Source: Candidatus Moraniibacteriota bacterium (GTDB lineage Bacteria > Patescibacteriota > Minisyncoccia > Moranbacterales > UBA2206). Taken from it: DNA of 64,000 nt. A program made the translations under genes and the position numbers. The stretch is from positions 9,182 through 73,181 of the forward strand of contig DPJH01000036.1 of NCBI GenBank assembly GCA_003543115.1, given 5' to 3'. The notes below the pieces were generated by a model, which worked only from the letters and a program-made list of their open reading frames with translations, was not told where the DNA came from and ran no database searches. Below, one piece after another: positions 3,468 to 64,000 of this stretch. Every line of letters begins with the position of its first letter. Position 1 is the first letter of the stretch.

Positions 3468-3470
3468 TCT

Positions 3471-4877: not shown

Positions 4878-4883
4878 TGCCAG

Positions 4884-6754: not shown

Positions 6755-6760
6755 TTTCGT

Positions 6761-11618: not shown

Positions 11619-11890
11619 AATATTAGATATATAATATATTATTTAAATATATATAAATAAATAGTTATTATATATAGAAAACAAAATTGTTAATAAGTCT
11701 ATTTTATGGCTATAATAAAGTATTTTATCTGTGGATATTGGTGTGGATAACTAAATGATTTGGTTTATTATAAAAAGGAGTTATTTTTTAAATTTCTATA
11801 AATCACTTAATTCTAAACACCTAATCAGTCAAATACTAGAGGTTTATTTATAGGGAATAGAGAGGAAAAAAACAACTTATCCACAAGTTA
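11619..11890. promoter_or_regulatory. dnaA-dnaN intergenic region with DnaA boxes (oriC-associated / dnaN promoter)
   Basis: Perfect DnaA boxes (TTATCCACA or its complement) are at 11742-11750 and 11878-11886, plus a one-mismatch box at 11731-11739. The region is AT-rich. Confidence 0.55.
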
Positions 11891-13267
11891 TCAAGTAATC
11901 TTATATAACCTTTCCTTTATAAGGGTTATTTCTTCTATTAATTTATCATTATTTTTTAATTCTCTGGTTATTTTATTACAAGCATGAATAGTTGTTGTGT
12001 GGTCTCTTCCTCCTAATTTTTCTCCTATTCCCGGAAAAGAATATTCTAATTCGCTTCTCATAAGATACATCGCGATTTGTCGTGGCTTAACAACCTCTTT
12101 TTTTCTATTTTTAATAATCAGATCATTTGGGTTTATATCATAAAAAGACGAGACAATATTGATAATATGTTTATGGTTGATGCCTTTTTTCTTTCCACTG
12201 GTAATAAGTTCTGATAGAAGGGTTGAAACATATTCTAAAGAAGGCTCTTTTCCGCTTAATTGAGAGGAGACCATAACTCTATTAAAAGCTCCTTCAAGTT
12301 CACGAATATTATTAGTTATGTTTTCAGCTATAAAGCTTAATGTTTCACTGGGAATATTAAAATTTTCATCACGAGATTTCTTGCTTAATATAGCCATTCT
12401 TGTTTCAAAATCAGCTTTTGAAACATCAGCAATCATGCCTCCTTCAAAACGTGAACGCAATCTTTCTTCTAGGGTTGGAATAGCTTTTGGAGCTCTATCG
12501 CTGCTTAAAACAATTTGTTTGTTAAGTTGGTATAAATAATTAAAAATATGGAAAAATTCCTCCTGCGTTTTTTCTTTTCCAGATAAAAACTGAACGTCAT
12601 CTATAATCAAAAGATCTATTTTTTGATAATGCTCCTTGAAATCATTTACCTTTTGTGTTCTAATAGAATCTATAAGTTCACTTGTAAAGCGCTCTGAAGT
12701 TATATATTTTACTTTTCTAGAGGGATTTTTTTGTAATATTTCATTGCCAATAGATTGAAGAAGATGTGTTTTTCCAAGTCCCACGCCTCCGTAAATAAAC
12801 AAAGGATTGTAAATTCTGCCTAGATTTTGAGAAACAGCGTAACAAGCAGCCTTAGCAAGCTCATTGCTTGATCCGACTATAAAATTTTCAAAAGTATATT
12901 TAGGATTAAGATTATTTTCTTGGCTTATGGTAAGGGTTTTTTTAATGAGAGGCTTATTTAAGATAATTTTCTTTGGAGGTTGAATAGCATCCACCCTGTT
13001 CTCTGAAAAAGAAGTATCATCGCTTGTTTTTATAGAACAAACAACCTCTCGTATGTTGTTTTGGGTATTGCGGAGAGCTTTAAGAATATATAGATTATAT
13101 TTATTCTCCAGCCATTCTTTAGCAAATCCATTTGGAACGCCAATAACAACCCTTCCATTTTCACTGGAAAGGATAGAAGTGTTTTTAAACCACGTAATAA
13201 AATTAGCTTTCGAAATTGAAAGTTCTATTTCCCCCAAAGCAGCCCTCCAAAGCTCTTCATTAGTCAT
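11891..13267 (-). CDS. dnaA: chromosomal replication initiator DnaA
   Basis: Has the AAA+ Walker A GVGLGKTHL and the C-terminal DnaA-box binding domain (GGRDHTTTIHACNKI). Confidence 0.9.
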   Translation of the reverse strand: MTNEELWRAALGEIELSISKANFITWFKNTSILSSENGRVVIGVPNGFAKEWLENKYNLYILKALRNTQNNIREVVCSIKTSDDTSFSENRVDAIQPPKKIILNKPLIKKTLTISQENNLNPKYTFENFIVGSSNELAKAACYAVSQNLGRIYNPLFIYGGVGLGKTHLLQSIGNEILQKNPSRKVKYITSERFTSELIDSIRTQKVNDFKEHYQKIDLLIIDDVQFLSGKEKTQEEFFHIFNYLYQLNKQIVLSSDRAPKAIPTLEERLRSRFEGGMIADVSKADFETRMAILSKKSRDENFNIPSETLSFIAENITNNIRELEGAFNRVMVSSQLSGKEPSLEYVSTLLSELITSGKKKGINHKHIINIVSSFYDINPNDLIIKNRKKEVVKPRQIAMYLMRSELEYSFPGIGEKLGGRDHTTTIHACNKITRELKNNDKLIEEITLIKERLYKIT

Positions 13268-13530
13268 GGTGTGATATTAATAAGAAAGATTCGTTATAAA
13301 AATAATTATATCATGCAAAAAAACAGATGTCTAAGCAAAATGTGGATAAAGGTGTGGATAAGCTGTTGTTAATAAGAAATAATCATAAATATATGTTCAT
13401 TATAGAATAGGATGGTAAAAAAGCAAATGGGAATAATTTAAATAAAAAGATAAAGCATATAATTGACTTTAGTAGAATTAATTGATAAACTTCTAATTAT
13501 TCAAAATAATAAAGAATATAATATATAAGT
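13268..13530. promoter_or_regulatory. probable oriC / dnaA promoter region (rpmH-dnaA divergent intergenic)
   Basis: Two perfect same-orientation DnaA boxes (TGTGGATAA) sit at 13341-13349 and 13353-13361, followed by a roughly 150-bp very AT-rich tract. This is the canonical rpmH<>dnaA origin context. Confidence 0.6.
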
Positions 13531-13668
13531 ATGAGTCAAACATATCAACCATCCAGTACTAGAAGAAAAAGAAGACATGGGTTTCGCAAAAAAAATGAAA
13601 CTGCTTCTGGCCAAGCTGTGCTGAAAAGAAGGAGAAATAAGGGAAGAAAAAATCTGACCACCGTTTAA
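13531..13668 (+). CDS. rpmH: 50S ribosomal protein L34
   Basis: Hand translation gives [45 protein letters not shown] (45 aa). It is absent from the ORF track only because it is under 60 aa. Confidence 0.85.
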
Positions 13669-13697
13669 GGTGAATTAATTCATTCGAGTTCATAATA

Positions 13698-14054
13698 ATG
13701 CTTCCTTTTAAAAATCGCCTAACTAAAAAAAAGGACCACGAAAAAGTTCAAAAACTAGGATATTTTGTTTCTTTAGGCAATATAGCTATAAAGAGCTTAA
13801 AGAATGACTTAAAGGAGACAAGGATAGGTATTGTAGTTGGTCTTAAATTTTCTAAAAAATCCACAGAAAGAAATCAGGTAAAAAGAATTTTACGTGATAT
13901 TGTTCATACTGAGCTGAAAAACATAGAAAAAGGATGGGATGTCGTTATTATGGCCAGAAAAAGAGAGGAAGAAAAAAGCAAAAATATTAATTTCAAAAAA
14001 AATATGTTGGCTGTCCTTGAAAAAGGAAAGCTATTATTAAATAAAAAATCTTAA
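13698..14054 (+). CDS. rnpA: ribonuclease P protein component
   Basis: A 118-aa basic protein starting MLPFKNRLTKKKD sits at the conserved position after rpmH. Confidence 0.8.
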   Translation: MLPFKNRLTKKKDHEKVQKLGYFVSLGNIAIKSLKNDLKETRIGIVVGLKFSKKSTERNQVKRILRDIVHTELKNIEKGWDVVIMARKREEEKSKNINFKKNMLAVLEKGKLLLNKKS

Positions 14055-14066
14055 ATAAATAAAAAA

Positions 14067-14840: not shown

Positions 14841-14851
14841 GTTTTAAATAT

Positions 14852-22088: not shown

Positions 22089-22105
22089 TTTTTTGTATTT
22101 TAAGC

Positions 22106-23185: not shown

Positions 23186-23214
23186 AAAAACAGTGCGGTT
23201 AAAACATTTACATT

Positions 23215-24330: not shown

Positions 24331-24338
24331 AAGTTTTT

Positions 24339-27167: not shown

Positions 27168-27183
27168 AAAATTTAAAAAATAA

Positions 27184-27843: not shown

Positions 27844-27871
27844 ACTAAATTTTTTTAGAATTTTTCTGCAG

Positions 27872-28363
27872 CTATTTTTTATTTCCTTGCTCGGCTTTTT
27901 TTCTTTCAGCGAGAGTCATTACGAATGCAACGACAACTAAAACAGTTTCCAGGGGAAGCATTCCTACAGCGGGAATCATTTCGGTAATCGCCGTGCCGAT
28001 CAAAAGAAGGGTTCTTTTGATAATGCTGCGGGCCATTTTTACTTTTCCGGTAGAGCCGGTGATAACCATAATCAGGAAGATGAAAACCGAGATAAAAAAA
28101 GTAAAGATAATGGTTAGAATTTCTCCAATTCCAAAAACGGCGATAAGGACGGTATTGATAATATCCAGCAGATCTTTAAGCATGGCTAGGATAAGCGCAA
28201 TGCCAAACAGCCAATCAATAAAAGGATCGATATATGCGAAAAGCGAAACTGATTTAATGGCAGCGGACGCCCTTTTTCCCCCTTTACTGATAGAATCCTT
28301 AAAAGATCTTTTTTGAACCAGCCTAAGGTTAGAAGCGTAGCTTGAATAAGTTTCTCCTGGCAT
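27872..28363 (-). CDS. small membrane protein of T4SS-like operon
   Basis: Three to four hydrophobic helices sit immediately downstream of the VirB4 ATPase gene. Confidence 0.35.
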   Translation of the reverse strand: MPGETYSSYASNLRLVQKRSFKDSISKGGKRASAAIKSVSLFAYIDPFIDWLFGIALILAMLKDLLDIINTVLIAVFGIGEILTIIFTFFISVFIFLIMVITGSTGKVKMARSIIKRTLLLIGTAITEMIPAVGMLPLETVLVVVAFVMTLAERKKAEQGNKK

Positions 28364-28386
28364 ACTGATTATATGTTAATCATTTT

Positions 28387-30213: not shown

Positions 30214-30239
30214 AAGGTATGAATTTTATAATTTTTTAA

Positions 30240-30926
30240 TTATTGTATTTCCAGATTATTTACATCCCCGATTTCTGGATTGGTAAATAAGTTAGGGTTA
30301 TAGGAATTATATAGCAGCTCAACTATTTCTTGTGTTTTGAGCGGAGTGAGGCGGAGTCCGATGCCGGAAAGAGACGCGGTGATATGATCCAGTCTTTGGA
30401 AAAGCTGATTTTTATATGTTTCAAAATGCTCTCTTTTTGCCTGGATACTTTTTCGGGGATTAAAATGGTCCATCATATTGCCTAAAAAACCCTTACCCTC
30501 ATTTTCTACCGGGGAAAACGGAACAACAATGTAGAAATTCTTATCCATAATATTGGAAACAGAAACTAATTGCTGGATAAAATTTTGGTATTCCGAAATT
30601 TGAAATTTCAGAAGATCGTTTTTCTGTTGGCGTGATTTTTTCTCAATGAAATCAAGATAATCGGAAATATTGAGCTTTCTGGAGCTTATGACGATTTGAA
30701 CCGGAAAATCAAGGGAATTGAGAAAAGCTTGATATTGCATTATTATAGCATCTTGTTCCTCGGTTGATTTAAGATCAAAATTAATGGCAGAAACAGCCAT
30801 TATGGCTCTCATTGAGCCATTTTTTAGAATAATAACATCTTCTTTCACTTCAGCTACGTCTAAAAATATTTGGGTGGCTGAAGCGTTATTTTGGCCGGAT
30901 AGTTTGTTTGAATGTAAAATTTCCAT
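30240..30926 (-). CDS. VirB4 N-terminal domain encoded as separate ORF
   Basis: ILKNGSMRAIMAVSAINFDLKSTEEQDAIIMQYQAFLNSLDFPVQIVI matches the conserved start of Gram-positive-type VirB4 proteins (PINFxLKSxxEQ...Y..FLxSL.FP.Q). It lies 26 nt upstream of the ATPase ORF, in a different frame. Confidence 0.55.
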   Translation of the reverse strand: MEILHSNKLSGQNNASATQIFLDVAEVKEDVIILKNGSMRAIMAVSAINFDLKSTEEQDAIIMQYQAFLNSLDFPVQIVISSRKLNISDYLDFIEKKSRQQKNDLLKFQISEYQNFIQQLVSVSNIMDKNFYIVVPFSPVENEGKGFLGNMMDHFNPRKSIQAKREHFETYKNQLFQRLDHITASLSGIGLRLTPLKTQEIVELLYNSYNPNLFTNPEIGDVNNLEIQ

Positions 30927-31330
30927 TATTTTTTCTTTATTTCTAGCAATTGGGATACTTTTTTAATTTCTTCAAGGCTGATTTCTTTGTTAGTGTGAAC
31001 GGATGACTTTTCATTGATTATTTTTGTGTGTTTGAATAAGTTTTTGGTGTCTGGCATTCTTCTCCACATATATATTTTTGGCTTGGAGAAAAATATGAAT
31101 ATTGATCCTAGAGCGGATATAAGAGGTTGTCCATTGGGCCGATAGAAAGCCAGTCCTCCAAAAATAAAAGCTACAAAAAAAGTTGACACAACAAAGGCTG
31201 CCAAATCAAGAACGCTCCAAAGTAAAAGAAGACACACTCCTCCTGCTGCCAGCCATCCTAATTGTTTGGCGGTCAAAGGGCCGACGATCTTATCTTCGAT
31301 ATCAATAAATTGTGGGATGTTGAATATCAT
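30926..31330 (-). CDS. VirB3-like small membrane protein
   Basis: A 134-aa protein with two TM helices immediately upstream of VirB4, overlapping it by 1 nt. This is the typical VirB3/ConD-type position and topology. Confidence 0.4.
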   Translation of the reverse strand: MIFNIPQFIDIEDKIVGPLTAKQLGWLAAGGVCLLLLWSVLDLAAFVVSTFFVAFIFGGLAFYRPNGQPLISALGSIFIFFSKPKIYMWRRMPDTKNLFKHTKIINEKSSVHTNKEISLEEIKKVSQLLEIKKK

Positions 31331-31348
31331 GGAATTAATTTTTGAATT

Positions 31349-32635
31349 TTATATCTCTCTTAAGTTTACCACATTTTTTCCGCTTGGTCTTGGAGGTGCG
31401 GGCTTTTTTTCGAGAACGACAGTGTTTGTTTTCGGTGTGGATGATTGGTAGGGCTTGACCGGCAAATTATCGGGTGATTGCGGAGTCGAAAAATATTTTT
31501 TTTGTTTCGCTATAGGATCCTTTTCATATTCATAAGGAAGTTTTTGGGGAGAGGAAAAAGTCATTTTGTTAGTTTGCAGTTCGCTTGCCTGCTCGCCTTG
31601 CTCTCGACTCGTCGAAGCGGGCCGGCGAGGCGGGTAGTTCGTAGTTTGTGGCGAGTTGTTGTCTGTGTATGGTTGGCCGTGGTCATTTTTCTTGTTAGCT
31701 TCAATTGGTCGTGACGTAGATGATTCTGTTTCAGCGATAGATGTTGCCGGTGCAGTTTGAATTTTGGGCTTCAATGTTTCTGGAACGTTTCTGCCTGCTG
31801 CGGGAGAGGTGAAAGGCGGAAAAACTATTTGTCTGGTTGTTTTGTTGATGGAAATGGGAGTTTCATCGTTGAATGATTTTAGGATATATGTCAGTTTTTG
31901 TCTGTCGGAAGAACTCATTTTCTTGGTGTTTTCACTATGAAATAGATAGTTTCCGATTTCAATGGCGCTATGTTTTTCATATCCGAAATATGAAGTGTAG
32001 TCAGCTAGCCAGTTTGCAAGCGATGGACGCACCGATTCCGGAAAGCTGAGAATCTTGATGCGTTGCGAGGTGATGATCTGTTCTCCGATGTCCGGAATCT
32101 CTTTGAGTGCCTGAAAAATAGGCATTTTCATCAGTGAGGGCGCGTTTTGTTCTTGTGATCCGACAGAATTTTTGGAGAGTGGTTCCTGCAAGGACAGTTC
32201 GCGTGCCTTAGAAAGAATTCTAGATGAAATATCTTGCGCAATTTGATTGCAGGCCGCTGAATCTATGCCAAGATTTTTTTCTAACAGGCCATTGATATCT
32301 TCCCATTCTTTAGTTCGGCACAATTGCCATACGATGTGGGGCAGCGCATCTCTTTGTTTTTGGGATAGATTGAATTTTTTAGCCAAATCATCATAGAAAA
32401 GGGCATGCTCAAAAGAAAGCAGAAAAAAAATCAAATTACTGTCCATTCCAGAGAGGGTGTTGGGAAAAATTTGCGCATTGGCGTTTTGTTTCTTCCATTT
32501 TTCCAGTAATTCTTTTTTTGTTTCGGCTATTTCTTCGGCTATTTTTTGTTTTTCCAGTTCTAAATCATAGCCTTGGTATGAAGGATTGCTTTGATTGAAC
32601 CTATTGTAATCAGTCTTATTTTGATATGTTGGCAT
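31349..32635 (-). CDS. hypothetical soluble protein with Pro/Ser/Thr-rich C-terminal tail
   Basis: No TM helix. The C-terminal third is low complexity (PQTTNYPPRRPASTSREQGEQ...) and is encoded by a locally GC-rich stretch at 31560-31700. Confidence 0.4.
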   Translation of the reverse strand: MPTYQNKTDYNRFNQSNPSYQGYDLELEKQKIAEEIAETKKELLEKWKKQNANAQIFPNTLSGMDSNLIFFLLSFEHALFYDDLAKKFNLSQKQRDALPHIVWQLCRTKEWEDINGLLEKNLGIDSAACNQIAQDISSRILSKARELSLQEPLSKNSVGSQEQNAPSLMKMPIFQALKEIPDIGEQIITSQRIKILSFPESVRPSLANWLADYTSYFGYEKHSAIEIGNYLFHSENTKKMSSSDRQKLTYILKSFNDETPISINKTTRQIVFPPFTSPAAGRNVPETLKPKIQTAPATSIAETESSTSRPIEANKKNDHGQPYTDNNSPQTTNYPPRRPASTSREQGEQASELQTNKMTFSSPQKLPYEYEKDPIAKQKKYFSTPQSPDNLPVKPYQSSTPKTNTVVLEKKPAPPRPSGKNVVNLREI

Positions 32636-32655
32636 TTTATATAATATTTTAAATT

Positions 32656-33054
32656 CTAAAATTGAAAAACTGCCTGATTGTCTTTGATATATTGAATAAT
32701 CATATTCAATCTTTGTTGATTTTTGGTTGCGTTTTCTCCTAAGTTTTTATCCATGGCTTCAGAAATTTCAAAAGCTTCTTTTGTGATATAATCTTTTCTG
32801 ATTGTTTCAAGAAGCTCTGTTTTGTAGTTTTCCGGAGCATTTTTGCCGATATATTCTATATTAGCTTCTGAAATGCCGGCTATTATGCTCGGATAGGAAA
32901 AGGAATATACGCTTGATAAGAGAAGCTCTTCCCCTTTGAGGGACAGTATGTGTTGGGCTAATGCAACTTTTTGTTGGATAGTGTCTTGCGGGAAGGCAAT
33001 GTGGGGTATCGCAAATTTATCTAAAATTTCTTCACTAATGATATCGCTAAACAT
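32656..33054 (-). CDS. small hypothetical cytoplasmic protein
   Basis: A 132-aa intact ORF within the operon. Confidence 0.35.
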   Translation of the reverse strand: MFSDIISEEILDKFAIPHIAFPQDTIQQKVALAQHILSLKGEELLLSSVYSFSYPSIIAGISEANIEYIGKNAPENYKTELLETIRKDYITKEAFEISEAMDKNLGENATKNQQRLNMIIQYIKDNQAVFQF

Positions 33055-33071
33055 GTTTTTAAGTAAAATAA

Positions 33072-34964
33072 TTAGGTCCAGAGAGCGTCAACCACTCCCC
33101 TGGCTTTTGCTGCGGCAGTATTAATTTCTGGCGTTGTCGGCTTATCGTTTGTTTCTGCAACTTTATGCGCTTGCTTGGCCTTATCATTAAGCACTTTCCA
33201 ATTGAGAGCGATTTGTTGCTTGATATAATTTTCTTTTTGTTCAGAATTTTTTCCTTGCATATTTGTAGCGTGCATTCTATTTCTTGGATCGAGAACCTCG
33301 CTTCTTACTTTCAATTCAAATTCATCCTTTTTGCTAGTATCAGTTTTAAGATGATGTAGCATGGATGCCACTTTAACAGCTTCTCCATATCGTTTAGACG
33401 GATCTTTGTGGTGTAAGTCAGCTTTTAATATCTGATGAACAAGACTGTCTTTTCCAATCGCATCAATGTGATCATTTTCATCAGCTTTTTCCTTATATTT
33501 CTTTCTGAATTCTTCCACCCTCTTGTTTTTACTGGCATCTTTCCATCCTTTTTTGCCTCCAGTGACTCCTCCTGCAATTTGAGACTCTCGTTCTTCTTTG
33601 CCGCTCTTAAATAAGAATCTTGAATATTTATTATCCATTCCAAAAATTTTCCCGCTCTTTCTTGTGTTTTCCCATCCTTTCTTTATTCCACCTGGAATGC
33701 CAGTTGTGTTCCATGCGCCTTTTCCAAAGCTTTTCGCCATACCAATGCCTTTTCCGCGCACTTTTCCAAGAATTGATCCTGCTCCGTCAATTCCCTTCAC
33801 TGCCATGCCCATTCCTATCCAAAGTATAACAATAGGAGGAATAAATCTTGTCATACCTATAACAATATTGTTGGGCGCTGCTTCCATGCCTCCTATAAAC
33901 CCAACATCATTAGTTACGGCTGCCAATGTATTCATTAATTGTGTTGATATATAAAGAACCAGAGCGATAATTGGTCCAGCCATGGCATATTTGAAAAGAT
34001 TGTTCCACCATTCTCCGCCCTTTCCAATAATAGATCCTGCAAACCCGATAGGAGAAAAAATTATTATAATTCCTAGGGCAATAGTTCGTATGAGCAGTAT
34101 GAAGGCGAGAGCTAAAATAGTAAGAGCCAAGACAAAAATAAATATAATAGAAGCAAGCATTTGAGGAATATTAGCTTTTTTGTCTGTTATGATAATTTGC
34201 AGGTTATCGAAGGCAGATATGCTTGTTATTATTTCTCCCCCAGATTTATTGCTACCCATTAAGTTGTCAAGCAGGGTATACATAAGGGAATTGCTAATAT
34301 CAATAATAAAACGAGTAATAGGAAAACTGAAGTTCACTAAAAGTGCCATAATAACCAACCAAAGCAGTATATTTTTATAGTTATATTTGCTATATTGAAA
34401 AACAGTGGAAAAAGCGGAAAAAAGAAGAACTAAAATAAAGCCTATATTGCAAAGATCTCTGACTTTGCTCCATATTTCATATATAGCTGGATCAGAAAGC
34501 ATAGCTGAGGCAGTGTTTGCATCAATTACTTTTGAAAATAACAAAACAGCTAGATTGAGTATCCATCCAGTAAAATAAAGGACGCCCTGAAGTAACCACA
34601 TAATGGCGCCTTCAGCTGCATCTCCAACAGCTCCTGTAAATTCCTTGTCATTCTTAACTTCTTGTATTAGTCCAGCTGATTTTGTGAAAAATGGATATCC
34701 CGATGTACCTTTTTTTATAAAATCTGTTCCATATTTATAACGTCCACCATTTGATCCGCATTTTTTTTCGCATGCCTCTTTTGTCGGAGCTGTTGTTGAA
34801 TCGCCTGTTGCATAGCTTACAATATCACCAATATTTGCCTGAAAACAAGTACATGTATTTGATGCGGCTAAAATAGGCGTTGTATCAAAAAACAAAAAAC
34901 CGGCAGATATGATAAATATCGCTAAGAGTGTTGTGAATATTTTTTCCCTTTTTTGGTCTTTCAA
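33072..34964 (-). CDS. VirB6/TrbL-like polytopic membrane protein
   Basis: A signal peptide and Cys-rich extracellular N-domain are followed by about 6 TM helices and a Lys-rich cytoplasmic tail. Size and position are typical of VirB6 in Gram-positive/CPR T4SS loci. Confidence 0.5.
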   Translation of the reverse strand: MKDQKREKIFTTLLAIFIISAGFLFFDTTPILAASNTCTCFQANIGDIVSYATGDSTTAPTKEACEKKCGSNGGRYKYGTDFIKKGTSGYPFFTKSAGLIQEVKNDKEFTGAVGDAAEGAIMWLLQGVLYFTGWILNLAVLLFSKVIDANTASAMLSDPAIYEIWSKVRDLCNIGFILVLLFSAFSTVFQYSKYNYKNILLWLVIMALLVNFSFPITRFIIDISNSLMYTLLDNLMGSNKSGGEIITSISAFDNLQIIITDKKANIPQMLASIIFIFVLALTILALAFILLIRTIALGIIIIFSPIGFAGSIIGKGGEWWNNLFKYAMAGPIIALVLYISTQLMNTLAAVTNDVGFIGGMEAAPNNIVIGMTRFIPPIVILWIGMGMAVKGIDGAGSILGKVRGKGIGMAKSFGKGAWNTTGIPGGIKKGWENTRKSGKIFGMDNKYSRFLFKSGKEERESQIAGGVTGGKKGWKDASKNKRVEEFRKKYKEKADENDHIDAIGKDSLVHQILKADLHHKDPSKRYGEAVKVASMLHHLKTDTSKKDEFELKVRSEVLDPRNRMHATNMQGKNSEQKENYIKQQIALNWKVLNDKAKQAHKVAETNDKPTTPEINTAAAKARGVVDALWT

Positions 34965-35011
34965 CTTTTTCGTATATGAAATGATTTCTATTATTTTATC
35001 CAGTCAATTTC

Positions 35012-35965
35012 CTATGTCGGATTGTCCGGATTGACCCATGGTTTGGCCTCTCCTTCCGGTGCTTCATTTTCTTCGCTATTTTGAGCGTCTTGGTCTTCTT
35101 CTCCCGTGTTTTCCTGAGATTTTCCGATTCCGTCTTGAATGGTTTGGGATACGAATTGGGTGACCATTCCGGCTATCACATCTTGCATGCTGGTGGCGCT
35201 GGAAATGGAATCAAAGCTCATGGCATTGGCATTGCTTAACTGGGAAGCGATATAGGCTCCGGGAGTGACAACCTTTCCATTTTTTTCGGTCCCCTTATAT
35301 CCCATGCCGGCGATAGCTTTGACCTCGGCGATTTGTCTTGTTTCTTCCAGTTTCTTTTGATACATGCTCTGGACATATAGTTGGTAGGACCAGGGATTGT
35401 TGATTCCGGAAAGATAGGAATTAAAATTGTTGAGATTCCCATCGCTAAAGAGATTTTCACTTGGATTGCCCACATAAGTCGTTTTCAATTTCTTGGTTTC
35501 TGATTGAATCATTGATTTAGCCATACTGGAGAGTTGTTTTTTGAAGTCAGCTCCTCCGCTGCCTTGAGGAAAATAATCGCCAATGCCTTCAGCTGAAACA
35601 TAGCTGCTCAGATCTTGTCCGCCAACACTTTCACTTATATAGTCATTTATATAGACTTGGGCGCTTTTTTCCGATTGGGTGAAAAGATAGTCCTTATAAT
35701 TGCTGATTATTTTGCTGTCTTTCGAGCTGCTTCCCCCGACAACATTGCTTACTTGTTCGCTGATCATCTTGATTGCCATCTGTTTCATGGCGCCGGTAAG
35801 AATATTTTTGACCATGTCTTGCACATAAGCCATGATTCTGTTTACCAAAGTAGCCGGTATGGCCATCCAGGCATCGGCTTTTTGGGCTTGGACAGGAGCA
35901 AAAGCCAAGCCGATAGAAAAAATAAAAACAAAAATAATTTTACGAAAATTTGATTTAGACTTCAT
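35012..35965 (-). CDS. secreted protein (signal peptide), possible VirB5/pilus-associated component
   Basis: Begins MKSKSNFRKIIFVFIFSIGLAFAPVQAQKADA. The mature protein is predicted helical and ends in an acidic tail. Confidence 0.35.
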   Translation of the reverse strand: MKSKSNFRKIIFVFIFSIGLAFAPVQAQKADAWMAIPATLVNRIMAYVQDMVKNILTGAMKQMAIKMISEQVSNVVGGSSSKDSKIISNYKDYLFTQSEKSAQVYINDYISESVGGQDLSSYVSAEGIGDYFPQGSGGADFKKQLSSMAKSMIQSETKKLKTTYVGNPSENLFSDGNLNNFNSYLSGINNPWSYQLYVQSMYQKKLEETRQIAEVKAIAGMGYKGTEKNGKVVTPGAYIASQLSNANAMSFDSISSATSMQDVIAGMVTQFVSQTIQDGIGKSQENTGEEDQDAQNSEENEAPEGEAKPWVNPDNPT

Positions 35966-35971
35966 ATTGGT

Positions 35972-37003
35972 TTATTTTATTTCCTCGAGAAAATTATCAG
36001 AAACGGAAACCCCATAATCGTTCAGTTGCTTTTGCATATTGGAATCAAGTTTCAAGTCATACTGCTCTATCTTTTTTGTAATAGAGTCGGAAAAATCAGA
36101 AACAAGCATGGTGGCGCTTTGGATGTTTGAATAATTCACTAGATTGGTCAGAGGATCATCTTGGACCGAATTCACCGAGTTTTTGAGCTGATCGACATAA
36201 CTGATCAGCTGGAGTCCCTTGATGTGGTCCTCAGTCATTTCTTCAGGCACTTCTATATCTTTTATTTGAGAGGATATTTTCTTTAGGGACAAGTCCAGAT
36301 CTTCGATGGAGCTGGAGTTTTGAGAGCTAAGAGCGCTTCCTATTTTCTCCATAACAGAAGAGTTGAGCTTATTGATGTCATCGTTTGAGTTGATCGGTTC
36401 CGGGGAATTGGAAAGTAAGACATAGGAAATTCCGGTGATATAGTCGCTCATATCCTGCTTTTTCTTTTCCAGCTGTTTTTCTTTGGATAATCCATCATAA
36501 TCCTGCTTTTTTATTTTTATTTGCTTGGGGTCTGCAGGAGGCGGGAGTTCTCGGGCGGATTTTTCCTGTTCTATGGATTCATTGACAATAGTTTTTATCT
36601 GTTCGATGGTTTCCTGCTGATTTTCGGAATCTGCATTTTTCAAAGTGGTGGAAATTTTTTTAGAAACCTCTTTGGTGAGATTTCTTTTGTCGGAGTCGTT
36701 ATTTTTTTTATCAGAAAAAGTGTTTGCATCCGGAATCAGCTTGTCTCCGGGCGATGGTTTTTTGGGATCATAGCCGCTTTTTACTTCTGCTCCGTCAGAA
36801 TATCCATCTCCGTCAGTATCCGTTTTGTTGGGATTGGTGCCATAAGTTTTTTCTTCATCATCCGAAAGGCCGTCTTGATCGCTATCAAGGAAGATGTTTT
36901 TAGTGGTGATTGATTTTTCTTCAGCATAAGCATAGAAAGAAAAACTGCTGACGATAAGTATCAATAAAACAGCTAAGGATATTTGAAAGTTTTTTATTTT
37001 CAT
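35972..37003 (-). CDS. secreted protein with thrombospondin type-3-like Ca-binding repeats
   Basis: A signal peptide is followed by DSDQDGLSDDEE...TDTDGDGYSDGAEVKSGYDP (DxDxDG motifs). Confidence 0.5.
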   Translation of the reverse strand: MKIKNFQISLAVLLILIVSSFSFYAYAEEKSITTKNIFLDSDQDGLSDDEEKTYGTNPNKTDTDGDGYSDGAEVKSGYDPKKPSPGDKLIPDANTFSDKKNNDSDKRNLTKEVSKKISTTLKNADSENQQETIEQIKTIVNESIEQEKSARELPPPADPKQIKIKKQDYDGLSKEKQLEKKKQDMSDYITGISYVLLSNSPEPINSNDDINKLNSSVMEKIGSALSSQNSSSIEDLDLSLKKISSQIKDIEVPEEMTEDHIKGLQLISYVDQLKNSVNSVQDDPLTNLVNYSNIQSATMLVSDFSDSITKKIEQYDLKLDSNMQKQLNDYGVSVSDNFLEEIK

Positions 37004-52701: not shown

Positions 52702-53658
52702 ATGGATATAAATTATTATAAAAAACAATTTCTTGATTATTTGGAAATTGAAAAAGGACGGTCAAGAAAAACAATCGAAAACTATGATCATTATCTGGAT
52801 GTTTTTTTGGATTGGGCTAAAATTGATTCTGTTGGGCAAATAAATGGAGATCTGATCAGAAATTTTAGAATCTATTTGAATAGATTGGAAACAAAAAATG
52901 GGAATACTCTAAAGCGAGTTACGCAGAATTACTACATCATTTCCATAAGAAGCTTTCTTAAGTATATGGCTAAAATTGATGTTAACACTTTGCAGGCAGA
53001 AAAAGTTGAAATCGGAAAGGCAACTAGCAGAGAAGTCGATTTTCTTGAAATTGATGAAATTTATAGGATATTGGCAGCAGCTGAAGGAAATGGCTTTAAG
53101 ACATTGCGCGATAGGGCTATTTTGGAGCTGCTATTTTCAGCGGGCTTGCGTGTTTCAGAGCTTGTTAATATAAATAGGGATAAAATAGATTTAAACAATC
53201 AAGAATTCAGTGTGAGAGGAAAAGGAGATAAGATTAGAATTGTTTTCGTTTCTGCTCAAGCAAAAAAATGTTTAAAAAAATATATAGACATGAGGACTGA
53301 TATTGATCCAGCTTTGTTTGTGCGTGATGCAAGGGCTCTAAAAAAATTTGAAAGCAAGAATAAGTTGCGTGCTGGTAAAAAAGACAATGTGGGTGACGAT
53401 TTAAGATTGACTTCCAGAAGCGTGCAGAGAATAGTCAAATATTATGCGGCTAAAGCTGGAATAATCAAAGATGTCCATCCTCATACGCTGCGCCATTCCT
53501 TTGCAACAAATCTCCTTATGAATGGAGCTGATATAAGAAGCGTTCAGGAAATGCTCGGTCATTCGTCCATAACTACAACCCAGGTATATACTCATATTAC
53601 GAACAAAAAATTGAAGGAGGTTCACTTAAGCTTTCATGGAAAGAGGAATAAAAAATAA
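52702..53658 (+). CDS. tyrosine recombinase XerC/XerD-like
   Basis: The C-terminal catalytic region reads HPHTLRHSFATNLLMNGADIRSVQEMLGHSSITTTQVYTH, and a SAM-like N-domain is present. Confidence 0.8.
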   Translation: MDINYYKKQFLDYLEIEKGRSRKTIENYDHYLDVFLDWAKIDSVGQINGDLIRNFRIYLNRLETKNGNTLKRVTQNYYIISIRSFLKYMAKIDVNTLQAEKVEIGKATSREVDFLEIDEIYRILAAAEGNGFKTLRDRAILELLFSAGLRVSELVNINRDKIDLNNQEFSVRGKGDKIRIVFVSAQAKKCLKKYIDMRTDIDPALFVRDARALKKFESKNKLRAGKKDNVGDDLRLTSRSVQRIVKYYAAKAGIIKDVHPHTLRHSFATNLLMNGADIRSVQEMLGHSSITTTQVYTHITNKKLKEVHLSFHGKRNKK

Positions 53659-59820: not shown

Positions 59821-60202
59821 AAGATTTATGAATCTAGCTGAAAAAATAGAAAAAATAAAAAAAGAACCAGAACATATCAGATTGCGTTATATTTGGTTTT
59901 GTGTTTTTATTTCCATGTTTTTTATAATTATGCTTTGGATTTTTTCATTGCAGATTGGAAACACGGAAAAAAGATCTGAAACAAGTGATGTTCTCGATTT
60001 GGATTCTTTGGGAAGCAGAATTGAGCAGGAAAGAGAAACATTGAAAGAGATAAATGAGAATATTAAAAATAGCAGTGACGAAATCATATCTCAAAACAGC
60101 GAGAGTAAAATAGATGAAAATTTTGAAGAAAATCAAACAATAAAAAATACACAAGAATCTATGGTGGAAAAAGATGCGCCTCTTTCTTTCCCTGTTAAAT
60201 AA
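59813..60202 (+). CDS. hypothetical membrane-anchored protein
   Basis: A 129-aa protein with one TM helix (YIWFCVFISMFFIIMLWIF) and an acidic C-terminal region. It overlaps the upstream gene end by 8 nt. Confidence 0.4.
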   Translation: MNKRFMNLAEKIEKIKKEPEHIRLRYIWFCVFISMFFIIMLWIFSLQIGNTEKRSETSDVLDLDSLGSRIEQERETLKEINENIKNSSDEIISQNSESKIDENFEENQTIKNTQESMVEKDAPLSFPVK

Positions 60203-60312
60203 GTTTTGTGTTAATCATAAAATAGAAAATATAATTTATTTAAATAATAAAATTTTTTTATTCACTTTTTGTTGCGTTCGGCATAGTGAATAAAGAAAAT
60301 TAAAGAATTAGA

Positions 60313-62745
60313 ATGGAAATTGGAAACATCAATTCAAGAGAAATAACTAAGGAAATGTCGCAATCTTATCTGGATTATGCTATGAGTGTGATTGTTTCCA
60401 GAGCTTTGCCGGATGTGCGCGATGGATTGAAGCCGGTTCACAGAAGAATACTCTATTCTATGTGGAATACGGGGCTGCGTTCAAACGCAAAATTTAGAAA
60501 ATCAGCAACGGTTGTCGGAGAGGTGCTGGGAAAATATCATCCGCATGGAGATGTGGCGGTATATGACTCAATGGTTCGTATGGCGCAGGATTTTTCTCTT
60601 CGTTATCCCATGGTAAAAGGACAAGGAAACTTTGGATCCATGGACGGTGATTCTCCAGCTGCTTATCGTTATACAGAAGCCAAATTGTCTCAAATGGCAG
60701 AAGAGATGCTTATAGATATTGAAAAAAATACGGTTAATTTTGTACCGAACTTTGATGGTCAACATAATGAACCGATGGTTTTGCCATCCAATCTTCCCCA
60801 GCTTCTTTTGAATGGCAGCATGGGAATTGCTGTTGGTATGGCTACAAATATTCCACCGCACAATCTAGGAGAGCTTATAGATGGCATATCGCATCTGATA
60901 GATAATCCGAATGCGACAATAGAGGATTTGGCGGAATTTGTGAAAGGGCCGGATTTCCCAACCGGAGGAATTATATATAATAAAAAAGATATACTAGAGG
61001 CCTACAAGACAGGGAGGGGCAAAATATTAACCAGAGCTAAAGCTGATATTTTTGAAACAAAAGCTGGGGCATTCCAAATTATTATAACGGAAATGACCTA
61101 CGCGACAAACAAAGCTGCTATGATTGAAAAAATGGCAGATCTTGTTCATGAAGGAAAAATTGTCGGCATAAGAGATATTAGAGATGAATCTGATAAGGAT
61201 GGAGTAAGATTGGTGATTGATCTAAAGAAAGACGCCTATCCGCAAAAAGTTTTAAATAAGCTATATTCCCTTACTGACCTACAAAAGAATTTCGGAGTTA
61301 ATATGTTGGCTTTGGTAGATGGAATCGAACCGACAGTTTTGAATTTAAAAGCTATTTTAGAATATTATATCATTCACAGAAAAACAGTAATAAGAAGAAA
61401 AACTCAATTTGAATTGGATAAAGCTAGAGACAGGGCACATATCTTAGAAGGATTGAAAAAGGCGCTGGATCATATTGATGAAATTATTGAGACGATTAAA
61501 AAATCTCAAACCAGAGAATTGGCTCATGCAAATTTGATGAAAAAATTCAAATTTTCAGATAGACAGACTACTGCTATCTTGGAAATGAGATTGCAAACCC
61601 TTGCCGGCTTAGAAAGAAAGAAAATTGAAGATGAATTGAAAGAAAAACTAGCTCTTATAAAAGAACTGGAGGCAATATTAAAAAGTGAGAAAAAGATCTT
61701 GGATATTGTAAAAAATGAACTTATTCGTGTAAAGGAAAAATTCGGAGATGAAAGAAGAACAAAGGTTATTAAGTCGGGCGTGGGAGAATTCAAGCAAGAA
61801 GACTTGATACCGAATGAGGAAGCTATAATAACTATTACCGAACAAGGTTATATTAAGAGAATGGATCCCAATGTGTATAAAGTTCAAAAAAGAGGTGGAA
61901 AAGGCGTGATAGGCGCTGTTACAAAAGAAGAGGATGGAATCAAGAAAGTTTTGGCTGTAATGACTCATGATGATCTTCTTTTCTTTACTGATTCAGGAAA
62001 AGTTTTTCAAACAAAGGCTTATGAAATTCCAACATCATCGAGAATTGCCAAGGGTCAATCTATCGTTAATTTCTTACAGCTTTCCCAGGAAGAAACCGTA
62101 ACCGCTATAGTTCCATTTATAAAAGAAGACAATTTTAAATATCTTTTAATGACCACAGAGCTTGGGACTGTTAAGAAAACTCCAATGGAAGATTTTGCAA
62201 ATGTCAGAAGAAGCGGTCTTATAGCAATTAATTTGGCCAAGGATGACATGCTTAAATGGGTGGAGGCAACAACCGGTCAGGATGAAATTATTATTACGAC
62301 CTCTAAAGGTCAAGCTATTCGCTTTAAGGAAAGTGACGTTCGGCCGATGGGAAGAAGCGCAGCAGGCGTCAGGGGAATTAAATTAAGAAAAGAGGACAGT
62401 GTGGTTGGAATGGACGCGGTATTTAAGAATCAAAAAGGAAATCAATTGATGATTATAACTGAAAATGGGTTTGGAAAGAGATCGGACCTGAAAGCTTATA
62501 AGATTCAAAAAAGAGGAGGATCGGGAATAAAAACCGCAAATGTAACGACTAAGACTGGAAATGTAGTGGGAGCTAATATTGTGAATATGGATGAAATGGA
62601 AGAAGATTTGATTTTAAGTTCTGGTAAAGGTCAGATAATAAGAATTCCACTAAATAGCGTGCCTACCTTGGGTAGAGCTACTCAGGGAGTAAGAGTTATG
62701 AAGCCACAGCCAGGAGATAAGGTGGCAGCTACGACTGTTTTGTAA
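60313..62745 (+). CDS. gyrA: DNA gyrase subunit A
   Basis: Has the active-site region [26 protein letters not shown] and C-terminal beta-pinwheel repeats. Length 810 aa. Confidence 0.9.
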
Positions 62746-62754
62746 ACCAAGGAG

Positions 62755-62790
62755 AAAAAAAGACGAGTATGAATACTCGTCTTTTTTGTT
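62755..62790 (+). terminator. rho-independent terminator of gyrA
   Basis: A perfect stem (AAGACGAGTAT-GAA-ATACTCGTCTT) is followed by TTTTTT. Confidence 0.75.
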
Positions 62791-63070
62791 TGCTATTTAT
62801 GGCTAATATAAGCCATAAATTATTAAAATAATTTCTTGCATAAAAAATTCGCCTATAATACAATTTTTAGAATTTAAATGTATCAGACTATGTTAATTAG
62901 GCGTTGTTTTTTAAAAAAATACTCATAGTTAGAAATAGATGAGCTTTTATGGGCATTAAACCGTTTCATTTTATAATCTAGTTTTTTAAGATAGGCAAAA
63001 AATTGAGCTGTAAGCATAATATGTAAAAATACTATATTATGCAATATATAATGCATAATGTCAAATATAA

Positions 63071-64000
63071 TTAATTTTTTATATCATTACTATAACCTGC
63101 TAATGCAAATGTTATAAACAATAATATTTCTCCTTGTTGAATATCCCATAAATAATGGTCAAATAACATGATAAAAATTAAGCCCAATAAGACACCTCTA
63201 CTTATTTTAGATATATAGTAGATCTTTGTAAATGTTCCACGTGGAACATTATTTATTAAATTACTTTTTTTATTTAATTTATTGTTCCACGTGGAACAAT
63301 TAACATTAGTGATTATATTCGATTGCTTTTCTTTACTATTTATTAATCTTGTAAAAAATAGTTTATAAAGTAATGTGATAAATATAATTAATCCTATTAT
63401 TCCTAACTCGCTAAATATAAGAAGAAAAACATTATGAACAGGTTGAAATTGCCAATCTAATAAATTGAGATTTGTATAAGATTGCATTTGAGTAACAAAT
63501 TGACCTGATCCTAAGCCAAAAAATGAATTGCTTAAAATTGTTTCACGTGAAACATTTAAATAGATCATTCTTTCATCCAATGATTTAAATAATAAAGAAT
63601 AAATATTCGGCTTAGCTATTACAAAAAGAGTGGTTATAATTAAAGAAAATAAAAATAATTTTTTGGTAATAATTGTTCCACGTGGAACAATTAAGCTATA
63701 TCCAAATGTAATAAGTTTTGATTTATGCCATTTTTTTAAACTTGGCTGAGGAGGAATGCTTATTTTAAATATGTATAGAGCGGTTATTATTAGCCCTAAG
63801 ATAGCTGATTTCGAGAAAGTAAATAAAAGAGCGATGATTTGAATGGAAAATATTAGTTTCTTATTAGATATTATATATAGAATGTCGCCTGATATTTTAT
63901 TTAAGATGATTTTTTTATTGTTCCACGTGGAACAATAATTCACTTTATTCTTAGATAATTGTTCCACGTGGAACAATTTATAATAAATATAAGTGATGCT
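63071..64000 (-). CDS. O-antigen ligase/Wzy_C-like membrane protein (partial; 5' end beyond window) carrying six in-frame palindromic insertions
   Basis: Wzy_C motif FGLGSGQF...PVHNVFLLIFSELGIIGLI. The reading frame stays open to the window edge, and the track's start is a TTG inside a palindrome. The translation contains the repeat-encoded peptides VPRGT (twice), VSRET, CSTWNN (twice) and FHVEQ. Confidence 0.45.
   Translation of the reverse strand, partial: SITYIYYKLFHVEQLSKNKVNYCSTWNNKKIILNKISGDILYIISNKKLIFSIQIIALLFTFSKSAILGLIITALYIFKISIPPQPSLKKWHKSKLITFGYSLIVPRGTIITKKLFLFSLIITTLFVIAKPNIYSLLFKSLDERMIYLNVSRETILSNSFFGLGSGQFVTQMQSYTNLNLLDWQFQPVHNVFLLIFSELGIIGLIIFITLLYKLFFTRLINSKEKQSNIITNVNCSTWNNKLNKKSNLINNVPRGTFTKIYYISKISRGVLLGLIFIMLFDHYLWDIQQGEILLFITFALAGYSNDIKN
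63231..63250. repeat. palindromic element copy 1 (AATGTTCCACGTGGAACATT)
   Basis: A perfect 20-bp palindrome with a CACGTG core. Confidence 0.85.
63281..63300. repeat. palindromic element copy 2 (ATTGTTCCACGTGGAACAAT)
   Basis: A perfect 20-bp palindrome. Confidence 0.85.
63539..63554. repeat. palindromic element copy 3, variant (TGTTTCACGTGAAACA)
   Basis: A perfect 16-bp palindrome with TTTCAC arms instead of TTCCAC. Confidence 0.7.
63670..63693. repeat. palindromic element copy 4 (TAATTGTTCCACGTGGAACAATTA)
   Basis: A perfect 24-bp palindrome. Confidence 0.85.
63915..63938. repeat. palindromic element copy 5 (TTATTGTTCCACGTGGAACAATAA)
   Basis: A perfect 24-bp palindrome. Confidence 0.85.
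63957..63978. repeat. palindromic element copy 6 (AATTGTTCCACGTGGAACAATT)
   Basis: A perfect 22-bp palindrome. Confidence 0.85.

What the first reader, a model, noticed from the sequence alone, without database searches (positions are those of the whole stretch)
63231..63978. Six copies of a perfect 16-24 bp CACGTG-core palindrome inserted in-frame in a Wzy_C-like gene
TTGTTCCACGTGGAACAA-type perfect palindromes occur at 63231, 63281, 63539 (variant), 63670, 63915 and 63957 with irregular spacing (pairs about 50 bp apart). All lie inside one long open reading frame that also carries a genuine O-antigen-ligase motif. The palindrome is translated in all three frames across copies (VPRGT, CSTWNN, FHVEQ), as expected for a DNA-level repeat colonising a gene without breaking it. 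This is reminiscent of in-frame palindromic elements such as Rickettsia RPEs, but much shorter. The two other Wzy_C paralogs (18496-20947) lack it. Alternatives are a dense operator array for a CACGTG-binding regulator, or a hotspot structure such as cruciform or phase variation. The element reaches the window edge, so more copies may follow.
Basis: seen in the sequence. Interest (0 to 1): 0.7.

Follow-up and report, generated by a model that had tools for sequence, protein, structure and literature searches.

The report
Centromere (parS) array inside a gene
The repeated palindromes are copies of parS, the site where the ParB protein grips a bacterial chromosome for segregation. In this group of ultra-small bacteria the whole cluster is written into the coding sequence of one membrane-protein gene, and the cluster has been kept inside this gene in all 80 related species examined.

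Summary
Six perfect palindromes of 16-24 bp lie at the stated coordinates (0.04 expected by chance). All sit in one minus-strand reading frame that runs off the window. A seventh perfect copy and one split copy lie just beyond the edge.

The core TGTTCCACGTGGAACA is letter for letter the parS site of Pseudomonas aeruginosa, P. putida and Myxococcus. One copy is the canonical TGTTTCACGTGAAACA. The array lies about 50 kb from dnaA, dnaN and a group of DnaA boxes.

In 80 species-representative genomes of Moranbacteria and relatives, every orthologue carries 2-18 sites. That is 641 sites in 141 kb of gene against 10 in 1,158 kb of flanks, about 520-fold. The sites are read in all three frames and lie mostly in loops. 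Arg is encoded by CGT at 276 of 278 site positions, against 11% elsewhere.

Neighbouring sites 75 bp or less apart are almost never a multiple of 3 bp apart (6 of 240). Intergenic parS pairs of other bacteria show no such rule.

The best reading is a ParB-loading centromere array embedded in a gene. ParB itself was not located. This is a new variant of a known kind.

The parts
63231..63250 (.). parS copy 1. AATGTTCCACGTGGAACATT, a 20-bp perfect palindrome, read as VPRGT on the minus strand.
63281..63300 (.). parS copy 2. ATTGTTCCACGTGGAACAAT, read as CSTWNN. It lies 50 bp from copy 1, in a different frame.
63539..63554 (.). parS copy 3. TGTTTCACGTGAAACA, the canonical pan-bacterial form, read as VSRET. 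It lies inside a helix of the Wzy_C domain and is the most widely conserved position among homologues.
63670..63693 (.). parS copy 4. TAATTGTTCCACGTGGAACAATTA, a 24-bp palindrome, read as VPRGT.
63915..63938 (.). parS copy 5. TTATTGTTCCACGTGGAACAATAA, a 24-bp palindrome, read as CSTWNN.
63957..63978 (.). parS copy 6. AATTGTTCCACGTGGAACAATT, a 22-bp palindrome, read as FHVEQ. It lies 41 bp from copy 5, in a different frame.
63071..64000 (-). Host gene, a WaaL/Wzy_C-type polytopic membrane protein. The window holds its 3' 309 codons. The full gene is 536 aa and would run to window-equivalent 64681 (L001 12759-14369). Beyond the edge it holds a 7th perfect parS (L001 13924-13937) and a split copy, GTTCCAC + 21 nt + GTGGAAC (L001 14074-14108).
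60313..62745 (+). gyrA, the conserved neighbour. The order CCA-adding enzyme, tRNAs, Wzy_C, gyrA, metallo-beta-lactamase-fold protein, S1, cmk, tilS, ftsH is shared with the related genomes.
11619..14066 (.). Probable replication origin region. It holds dnaA (11891-13267, minus), flanked by perfect DnaA boxes at 11742, 11877, 13341 and 13353. dnaN lies on one side (10464-11618) and yidC/jag on the other (14067-15340). The parS array is about 50 kb away.

Best explanation
The palindromes are chromosomal parS sites, the 16-bp inverted repeat that a ParB (Spo0J) dimer recognises. Together they form a single compact centromere-like array of seven intact copies in about 1.0 kb, roughly 50 kb from oriC.

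The proposed mechanism is inferred from what is established for ParABS systems. ParB dimers load at each copy, bind CTP, close into clamps and slide onto neighbouring DNA. Many adjacent loading sites then build one dense partition complex. That complex marks the origin-proximal region for segregation and for SMC loading.

The unusual feature is that the whole array is written into the coding sequence of a functional WaaL/Wzy_C-family membrane-protein gene, mostly in its loops. This works because the TGTTCCACGTGGAACA form has no stop codon in any frame, whereas the canonical TGTTTCACGTGAAACA contains TGA in one frame. The arrangement is ancestral to a whole lineage of ultra-small bacteria (Moranbacteria and relatives).

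Close neighbours are nearly always out of frame with each other. My inference is that a slippage deletion between two such copies would frameshift the gene, so selection on the protein protects the array from collapsing.
For: Sequence identity:
- The 16-mer equals P. aeruginosa parS2/parS3 and the P. putida site. It differs by its last base from the 22 M. xanthus sites, and it fits the consensus TGTTNCACGTGAAACA.
- All 8 papers listed of the 9 that contain the string are about ParB/parS or partition (stabilisation) cassettes.

Independent association with par genes:
- Among the first 120 metagenome contigs that hold two copies 29-59 bp apart, 59 encode ParA and/or ParB. The pair lies a median 152 bp from the par gene.
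- Other such contigs carry the pair beside dnaA, dnaN, yidC, jag or mnmG.

Location:
- dnaA, dnaN, yidC and jag lie in the same window, with four perfect DnaA boxes flanking dnaA.

Restriction to one place:
- There are 0 other copies in the window, in L001 or in L086.
- In 80 species, 641 sites lie in the gene against 10 (mostly 1-mismatch) in 1.16 Mb of flanks. Every orthologue has 2-18.
- The loci were retrieved with peptide patterns unrelated to the palindrome.

Selection at the DNA level:
- All three frames are used (290/159/198).
- Arg inside sites is CGT in 276 of 278 cases, against 148 of 1,369 outside.
- Conservation extends symmetrically to AAWTGTTCCACGTGGAACAWTT.

The host gene is real:
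- Pfam Wzy_C.
- 26 invariant residues across 76 homologues.
- Six of 8 site peptides lie in low-confidence loops.

Frame staggering:
- 6 of 240 close neighbours are in frame, against 35% expected. The distribution is uniform beyond 120 bp.
- The control set of non-coding pairs is uniform at 40/50/45, against 2/98/84 in the gene.
- There are 30 out-of-frame against 3 in-frame classes of loop and frame pair.
Against: - No ParB or ParA gene was found in the window, in 18 kb of adjoining contigs, or within about 10 kb of the array in any of the 80 genomes. This was tested by Pfam scans, by tblastn with a validated Spo0J and by profile HMMs. Whether the lineage encodes ParB could not be tested with these tools.
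- Genome size is unknown, so 'origin-proximal' rests on the 50-kb distance alone. GC skew shows no switch inside the window.
- Only about 20 kb per related genome was seen, so further parS sites elsewhere are not excluded.
- The deletion-protection idea is an inference from a spacing statistic. Related species are not independent samples. In a coding region spacer lengths can change only in steps of 3, which freezes whatever frame relation a pair started with.
Confidence: 0.85

Rival explanations
1. A selfish in-frame palindromic mini-element, like Rickettsia RPEs, inserts into genes and is tolerated because it keeps the frame open.
For: - Copies are read in all three frames without breaking the gene.
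- Protein length rises by about 9 aa per site.
- In L003 a three-site module with a nearly identical spacer occurs in three different loops.
Against: - The element is confined to one orthologous gene in 80 of 80 species.
- It is absent from 1.16 Mb of flanks and from the paralogous Wzy_C genes.
- The sequence is identical to a known protein-binding site shared with distant phyla.
- No transposase or target-site signature was seen.
Confidence: 0.03
2. The palindromes are an operator array for a different dimeric CACGTG-binding regulator, or a ParB paralogue of the Noc or KorB type, that controls the Wzy_C gene or gyrA rather than segregation.
For: - The sites are symmetric, and conservation extends beyond the 16-bp core.
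- No ParB gene was located.
Against: - The sites lie throughout the coding region, not in a promoter.
- They match the parS consensus exactly, not the Noc or KorB sites as I know them from general knowledge.
- In other bacteria the same close pairs sit next to parAB.
Confidence: 0.06
3. The palindromes are a structural hotspot. They extrude cruciforms or promote slippage, giving phase or length variation of a surface-polysaccharide enzyme.
For: - The palindromes are perfect and 16-26 bp long.
- The gene belongs to a surface-glycan family.
- Site number varies from 2 to 18 between species.
- One copy is split by a 21-bp insert.
Against: - Two independent assemblies are identical over the region.
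- Out-of-frame spacing makes slippage destructive rather than switchable.
- This reading does not explain identity to parS or the conservation across 80 species.
Confidence: 0.03
4. The repeats are a protein-level motif needed by the enzyme.
For: The VSRET/VSRGT copy lies in a confidently modelled helix of the Wzy_C domain and is present in 80 of 120 homologues.
Against: - Three unrelated peptides (VPRGT, CSTWN, FHVE) all derive from one DNA word.
- Codon choice is fixed: CGT in 276 of 278 cases.
- The paralogues and Pfam's own family model do not need these peptides.
Confidence: 0.01

Closest known systems
Chromosomal parS sites of P. aeruginosa (parS1-4 cluster near oriC) and P. putida
   Same: The 16-bp sequence TGTTCCACGTGGAACA is identical. 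There are several copies grouped near the origin.
   Different: The window's organism is unrelated, an AT-rich (about 35% GC) member of the Candidate Phyla Radiation. Here 7 copies lie within about 1 kb of one gene. Pseudomonas has 4 spread over several kb plus dispersed weaker sites.
Myxococcus xanthus parS cluster (22 sites, TGTTCCACGTGGAACG)
   Same: There are many copies of the same GG/CC variant in one cluster serving one ParB.
   Different: I could not check whether the Myxococcus sites are coding. In the GC-rich metagenome arrays I did see (L202, L108), the sites form a regular tandem array beside parB, not an array inside a conserved gene.
Bacillus subtilis parS inside the spo0J coding sequence (read as NVPRET)
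   Same: This is a parS carried inside a gene and translated. The Spo0J sequence I used contains VPRET. That this stretch is a parS site rests on my own knowledge.
   Different: In Bacillus it is a single site per gene, with sites scattered over the origin-proximal fifth of the chromosome. There is no array and no frame rule.
Plasmid centromeres made of tandem repeats (for example F sopC, R1 parC; own knowledge)
   Same: These are dense arrays of binding sites that nucleate one partition complex.
   Different: They are non-coding, with regular head-to-tail units and plasmid-specific sequences.
Rickettsia palindromic elements (RPE)
   Same: These are palindromic DNA found in frame inside protein-coding genes.
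   Different: By my own knowledge, RPEs are about 100-150 bp, are dispersed over many unrelated genes and have no known binding protein. The repeat here is 16-24 bp, confined to one gene and identical to parS.

Membership tests
Chromosomal parS (ParABS centromere) | A 16-bp inverted repeat matching tGTTNCACGTGAAACa | tested here: met
   Six intact copies (five in the window, one just beyond its edge) are TGTTCCACGTGGAACA and one is TGTTTCACGTGAAACA. The literature strings are identical.
Chromosomal parS (ParABS centromere) | Location in the origin-proximal part of the chromosome | tested here: met
   dnaA, dnaN, yidC and jag lie 50 kb away in the same window, with four perfect DnaA boxes. Genome size is unknown.
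Chromosomal parS (ParABS centromere) | Few, localised copies rather than a dispersed repeat | tested here: met
   No other copy occurs in about 82 kb of this genome. In 80 relatives, 641 sites lie in the gene against 10 in 1.16 Mb of flanks. Whole genomes were not seen.
Chromosomal parS (ParABS centromere) | The same sequence is associated with parA/parB genes in other genomes | tested here: met
   59 of 120 metagenome contigs with a close pair encode ParA and/or ParB, a median 152 bp away.
Chromosomal parS (ParABS centromere) | A cognate ParB (ParB/Srx N-domain plus HTH) is encoded by the same genome | tested here: inconclusive
   None was found in the window, in adjoining contigs or in 80 x about 20 kb of related loci. 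The query was validated against PDB 6sdk.
Chromosomal parS (ParABS centromere) | ParB binds and spreads from the site in vivo or in vitro | not testable with these tools
   This needs ChIP-seq, EMSA or a CTP-dependent clamp assay.
RPE-like in-frame palindromic mobile elements | Dispersed through many unrelated genes and intergenic regions of the genome | tested here: not met
   The repeat is confined to one orthologous gene.
RPE-like in-frame palindromic mobile elements | Inserted in frame, leaving the host gene intact | tested here: met
   The frame is open and the Wzy_C domain is intact. Protein length rises with site number.
WaaL/Wzy_C O-antigen ligase-type membrane proteins (the host gene) | Pfam PF04932 above its gathering score | tested here: met
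   44.2 bits against a cut-off of 31.7, on the window's fragment.
WaaL/Wzy_C O-antigen ligase-type membrane proteins (the host gene) | Polytopic fold like solved WaaL | tested here: met
WaaL/Wzy_C O-antigen ligase-type membrane proteins (the host gene) | Glycan ligase or polymerase activity | not testable with these tools
   This needs biochemistry.

The most novel reading that the evidence does not exclude
A whole bacterial lineage keeps its chromosomal centromere inside the reading frame of one selected membrane-protein gene. The array is 'insured' by the genetic code. Neighbouring parS copies are kept out of frame, so any repeat-mediated deletion or duplication between them frameshifts the gene and is purged. 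This would be a previously undescribed way in which coding selection stabilises a non-coding repeat array. It would also be a natural case of dense dual coding, with a protein sequence and a ParB loading platform in the same DNA.
Probability: 0.4. Interest if true: 0.8.

Novelty: new variant of a known kind. Interest (0 to 1): 0.65.

Why it matters
parS and ParB are textbook. A centromere array wholly embedded in one conserved protein-coding gene, maintained across at least 80 species and obeying a reading-frame rule, is not something I could find described. Seven literature searches on this question found no paper describing it.

If the reading holds, it does four things:
- It gives a sequence landmark for the origin region in the fragmentary genomes of these uncultured ultra-small bacteria.
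- It provides a natural system for asking how ParB clamps, transcription and co-translational membrane insertion coexist on the same DNA.
- It shows how far a protein's loops can be commandeered by a DNA-level signal. Up to 18 sites fit in one gene, each fixing 5-6 codons.
- It offers a testable idea for how repeat arrays can be stabilised by embedding them out of frame in a selected gene.

There is also a practical use. The peptides VPRGT, CSTWN and FHVE(H/Q) in predicted proteins are a signature of translated parS.

Tried and rejected
**Looking for ParB and ParA**
- I ran Pfam on all 63 window reading frames of 120 aa or more apart from gyrA, which annotates. I also scanned four proteins beyond the edge. 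No ParB or ParA domain appeared.
- tblastn with B. subtilis Spo0J and Soj found nothing in the window or in 85 loci. Spo0J scored 407 bits against PDB 6sdk, which confirms it; Soj was not checked in this way.
- Profile HMMs built from 31 ParB and 54 ParA sequences found nothing convincing in 5,335 reading frames.
- Extending 10 kb upstream of the window also found nothing.
- I could not target a ParB search to this lineage.

**A conserved HTH protein**
A 220-230-aa HTH protein lies near rplS (L001 21142-21804; L005 1342-2034). I considered it as an alternative binder. It shows only weak matches to transposase-type HTH domains and nothing ParB-like.

**RNA and fold searches**
- An Rfam scan of 62700-64000 gave only sub-threshold microRNA-like hairpin matches, caused by paired palindromes.

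**Helical phasing as the cause of the spacing peaks (37, 41, 49-50, 59 bp)**
These spacings do not share a common phase at 10.5 bp per turn. Non-coding pairs in other bacteria show a broad distribution.

**Literature**
Searches for parS, ParB or chromosome segregation combined with Patescibacteria, Parcubacteria, Candidate Phyla Radiation, Moranbacteria, Saccharibacteria or O-antigen ligase, and for the peptides themselves, returned nothing relevant.

**A biased count**
The first homologue search collects candidates by shared 5-residue words. It therefore favours proteins that carry the site peptides. I do not rely on its count of 117 of 120. I rely on the genome scan, whose search patterns were unrelated to the palindrome.

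Full report
**1. The observation**

The pattern GTTCCACGTGGAAC, allowing 2 mismatches, occurs six times in the 64-kb window, all between 63234 and 63974. Shuffled sequence gives 0.04 matches on average and never six.

The maximal perfect palindromes start at 63231, 63281, 63539, 63670, 63915 and 63957.

All six lie in a single minus-strand frame that is open from 63071 to the window edge. They are translated as VPRGT, CSTWNN, VSRET, VPRGT, CSTWNN and FHVEQ. The other two frames are full of stops.

The open frame scores 44.2 bits on Pfam Wzy_C, against a cut-off of 31.7. The two Wzy_C paralogues at 18496-20947 contain no copy.

**2. Beyond the window edge**

An exact look-up of the neighbouring gyrA protein returned a sediment-metagenome contig, L001. 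It is identical to the window over 60001-64000. Three things follow from it:
- The complete gene is 536 aa (L001 12759-14369, minus strand).
- There is a seventh perfect copy at L001 13924-13937.
- There is an eighth copy whose two half-sites, GTTCCAC and GTGGAAC, are separated by a 21-nt GC-rich insert. It is read as VPR-LAYRQAG-GT.

Two tRNA genes and a CCA-adding enzyme gene lie upstream.

**3. What the sequence is**

- TGTTCCACGTGGAACA is printed as parS2/parS3 of Pseudomonas aeruginosa in PMC4368675.
- The review PMC7022226 lists it as the P. putida site, and as TGTTCCACGTGGAACG for the 22 Myxococcus xanthus sites. It gives the general chromosomal consensus as TGTTNCACGTGAAACA.
- All 8 papers listed of the 9 in the library that contain the string deal with ParB/parS or partition (stabilisation) cassettes.
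- The variant copy at 63539 is the canonical TGTTTCACGTGAAACA.

I then tested the identification without relying on the literature. I scanned metagenome contigs for two copies 29-59 bp apart.
- Of the first 120 contigs returned, 59 encode a ParA and/or ParB homologue. The pair lies a median 152 bp from the par gene, and within 500 bp in 57 of the 59.
- Others carry the pair next to dnaA, dnaN, yidC, jag or mnmG.
- Only one of the 120 (L190) is a homologue of the present gene.

So the palindrome behaves as parS across bacteria. Its placement in a Wzy_C gene is a special case.

**4. Genomic setting**

The window contains the following:
- dnaN at 10464-11618 and dnaA at 11891-13267, both on the minus strand;
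- yidC at 14067-14840 and jag at 14852-15340;
- four of the window's eight perfect DnaA boxes (TTATCCACA), immediately flanking dnaA.

The origin is therefore most probably there, about 50 kb from the array. GC skew does not switch sign within the window, so that line of evidence is silent.

**5. The host gene is real**

- The full protein has hundreds of full-length homologues at 34-58% identity, named as Moranbacteria, Parcubacteria or Patescibacteria where a name exists.
- 26 residues are invariant across 76 of them.
- An AlphaFold model built on that alignment has mean pLDDT 77 and pTM 0.83.

In this protein the eight site-encoded peptides lie between hydrophobic segments. In the model they are placed as follows:

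| Position(s) | Placement in the model |
|---|---|
| 88, 237, 250, 332, 462, 479 | Coil or low-confidence loops |
| 145 | A tight turn between two helices |
| 377 (VSRET) | Inside a confident helix |

**6. Conservation**

A scan of one genome per species used the peptide patterns [FM]PHPN[IV][LF]GG and FDHY[LFP]WDI. Neither has anything to do with the palindrome. The scan found 539 relatives and kept the best 80 loci, nearly all labelled Moranbacteria/Moraniibacteriota or Parcubacteria/Patescibacteria. Some records carry what look like mislabelled names.

Counting GTTYCACGTGRAAC with at most one mismatch:

| Region | Sites | DNA searched | Density |
|---|---|---|---|
| Inside the gene | 641 | 141 kb | 4.5 per kb |
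| Flanks | 10 | 1,158 kb | 0.009 per kb |

- Every one of the 80 genes holds 2-18 sites.
- Most of the ten outside matches are one-mismatch sites, in the CCA-adding enzyme or in a protein of about 215 aa. Two lie just 3' of the gene in L071.
- Gene order around the locus is conserved: CCA enzyme, tRNAs, Wzy_C, gyrA, a metallo-beta-lactamase-fold protein, S1, cmk, tilS, ftsH.
- Orthologues of the window's two paralogues, present in the flank of L042, carry no site.

**7. Selection acts on the DNA**

Over 647 sites in 81 genes:
- All three frames are used (290, 159 and 198).
- The Arg codon inside sites is CGT in 276 of 278 cases, against 148 of 1,369 Arg codons elsewhere in the same genes.
- Conservation extends symmetrically beyond the 16-bp core, to AAWTGTTCCACGTGGAACAWTT.
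- 538 of 651 matches are the perfect GG/CC form.

Read directly from the sequence, that form has no stop codon in any frame, whereas the canonical form contains TGA in one frame. This may be why an AT-rich lineage uses the GC-richer variant; that is inference.

Protein length increases by about 9 residues per site (r = 0.55). Sites are therefore partly insertions into loops.

In a protein alignment the sites fall at about ten recurrent positions. Each position is occupied in 30-65% of homologues, often in different frames in different species. Alignment of loops is uncertain.

**8. A reading-frame rule**

- Among adjacent sites 75 bp or less apart, only 6 of 240 are a multiple of 3 bp apart. 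From frame frequencies 35% would be expected.
- Next-nearest sites 76-120 bp apart are also depleted (18 of 121).
- Beyond 120 bp the three classes are equal.
- As a control, 135 close pairs from the other, mostly intergenic, metagenome loci split 40/50/45. The same distance range in the gene splits 2/98/84.

Because related species are not independent, I also counted each combination of loop and ordered frame pair once. There are 30 out-of-frame classes against 3 in-frame. Of the distinct spacing values, 31 of 34 possible non-multiples occur against 5 of 17 multiples.

My explanation is inference. Two identical 20-bp repeats a few dozen bases apart are prone to slippage deletion. If they are in frame, the deletion merely shortens a loop and the pair collapses. 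If they are out of frame, it destroys the gene and is purged.

A caveat applies. In coding DNA, spacers can change length only in steps of three, so a pair keeps the frame relation it began with. How out-of-frame neighbours arise in the first place is unexplained.

In L003 a three-site module (FHVE, then 41 bp, CSTWNN, then 50 bp, VPRGT) recurs in three loops. The spacer between its second and third sites is nearly identical in all three copies. Whole modules are therefore copied or homogenised within a gene.

**9. What is missing**

I could not find ParB or ParA. They are not in the window. They are not in 18 kb of adjoining contigs. They are not within about 10 kb of the array in any of the 80 genomes. 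The searches used tblastn and profile HMMs, and the Spo0J query was validated against PDB 6sdk.

The rest of these genomes is out of reach of the tools. The near-perfect preservation of a two-fold symmetric 16-22-bp word at synonymous positions in 80 species requires a protein that reads it. ParB is the only known reader of this word. That it is ParB here remains an inference.

**10. Verdict**

The finding is real and non-random. It is not an RPE-like colonising element, a protein motif or an operator in the usual sense. It is a parS centromere array embedded in a functional WaaL-like gene, conserved across a lineage of the Candidate Phyla Radiation, with a distinctive out-of-frame spacing rule.

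parS itself is well known. This architecture appears not to have been described in the searchable literature.

Noticed in passing
L001 14074-14108 (window-equivalent about 64386-64420, beyond the edge): One parS copy is split exactly at its centre by a 21-nt GC-rich, nearly palindromic insert (CTGCCTGCCGGTAGGCAAGGC). The insert is in frame and adds LAYRQAG inside VPRGT. It occurs nowhere else in the 87 loci held at the time of the search.
   Followed up: partly
L003 10661-11505: A three-site module of about 105 bp (FHVE, 41 bp, CSTWNN, 50 bp, VPRGT) is present three times in different loops of the same gene. Its second spacer (SQCESYTIAK) is nearly identical in all three. This points to intragenic duplication or gene conversion of whole modules.
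   Followed up: partly
L202 9240-9720 and L108 855-1080 (metagenome contigs, 72-74% GC): These are regular tandem arrays of the same parS. L202 has 10 copies with a period of about 45 bp immediately downstream of a parB gene, plus one copy at its start. L108 has 7 copies at about 37 bp. Dense arrays therefore exist elsewhere, but here they lie beside parB and apparently outside real genes.
   Followed up: partly
L011 2071, L023 3147, L024 2324: A one-mismatch parS-like site recurs at the same position (NVSRET/NVPRET/VSHET) of a conserved protein of about 215 aa, 3-8 kb upstream of the array. It may be a weak outlying site or a relic.
   Followed up: no
window 20937-37003: This minus-strand block consists mostly of large reading frames with no Pfam match. 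Among them are a VirB4/TraG-type ATPase (28387-30213), a PrgI-family protein (30926-31330), an SLT transglycosylase (22106-23185) and a TSP3-repeat protein (35972-37003). It looks like a type IV secretion or conjugation-like apparatus. GC rises to 0.43 at 22-24 kb.
   Followed up: no
window 2811-7249: This cluster holds a 7TM_transglut membrane protein, three ATP-grasp/RimK-like ligases and a GNAT acetyltransferase. It may be a peptide or poly-amino-acid modification system.
   Followed up: no
window about 10184-10462 (minus), from L086 19486-19764: A 92-aa DciA-family protein (a helicase-loading factor) is encoded directly downstream of dnaN. This fits an origin-region gene set.
   Followed up: no
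window 52702-53658: A XerC/D-type tyrosine recombinase lies 10 kb from the array, between a LysM-CHAP hydrolase and ftsH. It holds the same place in L003.
   Followed up: no
L014, L015, L024, L032 and other record titles: Several genomes that carry this Moranbacteria-type locus are titled 'uncultured Bdellovibrionales', 'Ignavibacteriaceae' or 'Brevundimonas sp.'. These are probably mislabelled or contaminated bins.
   Followed up: no
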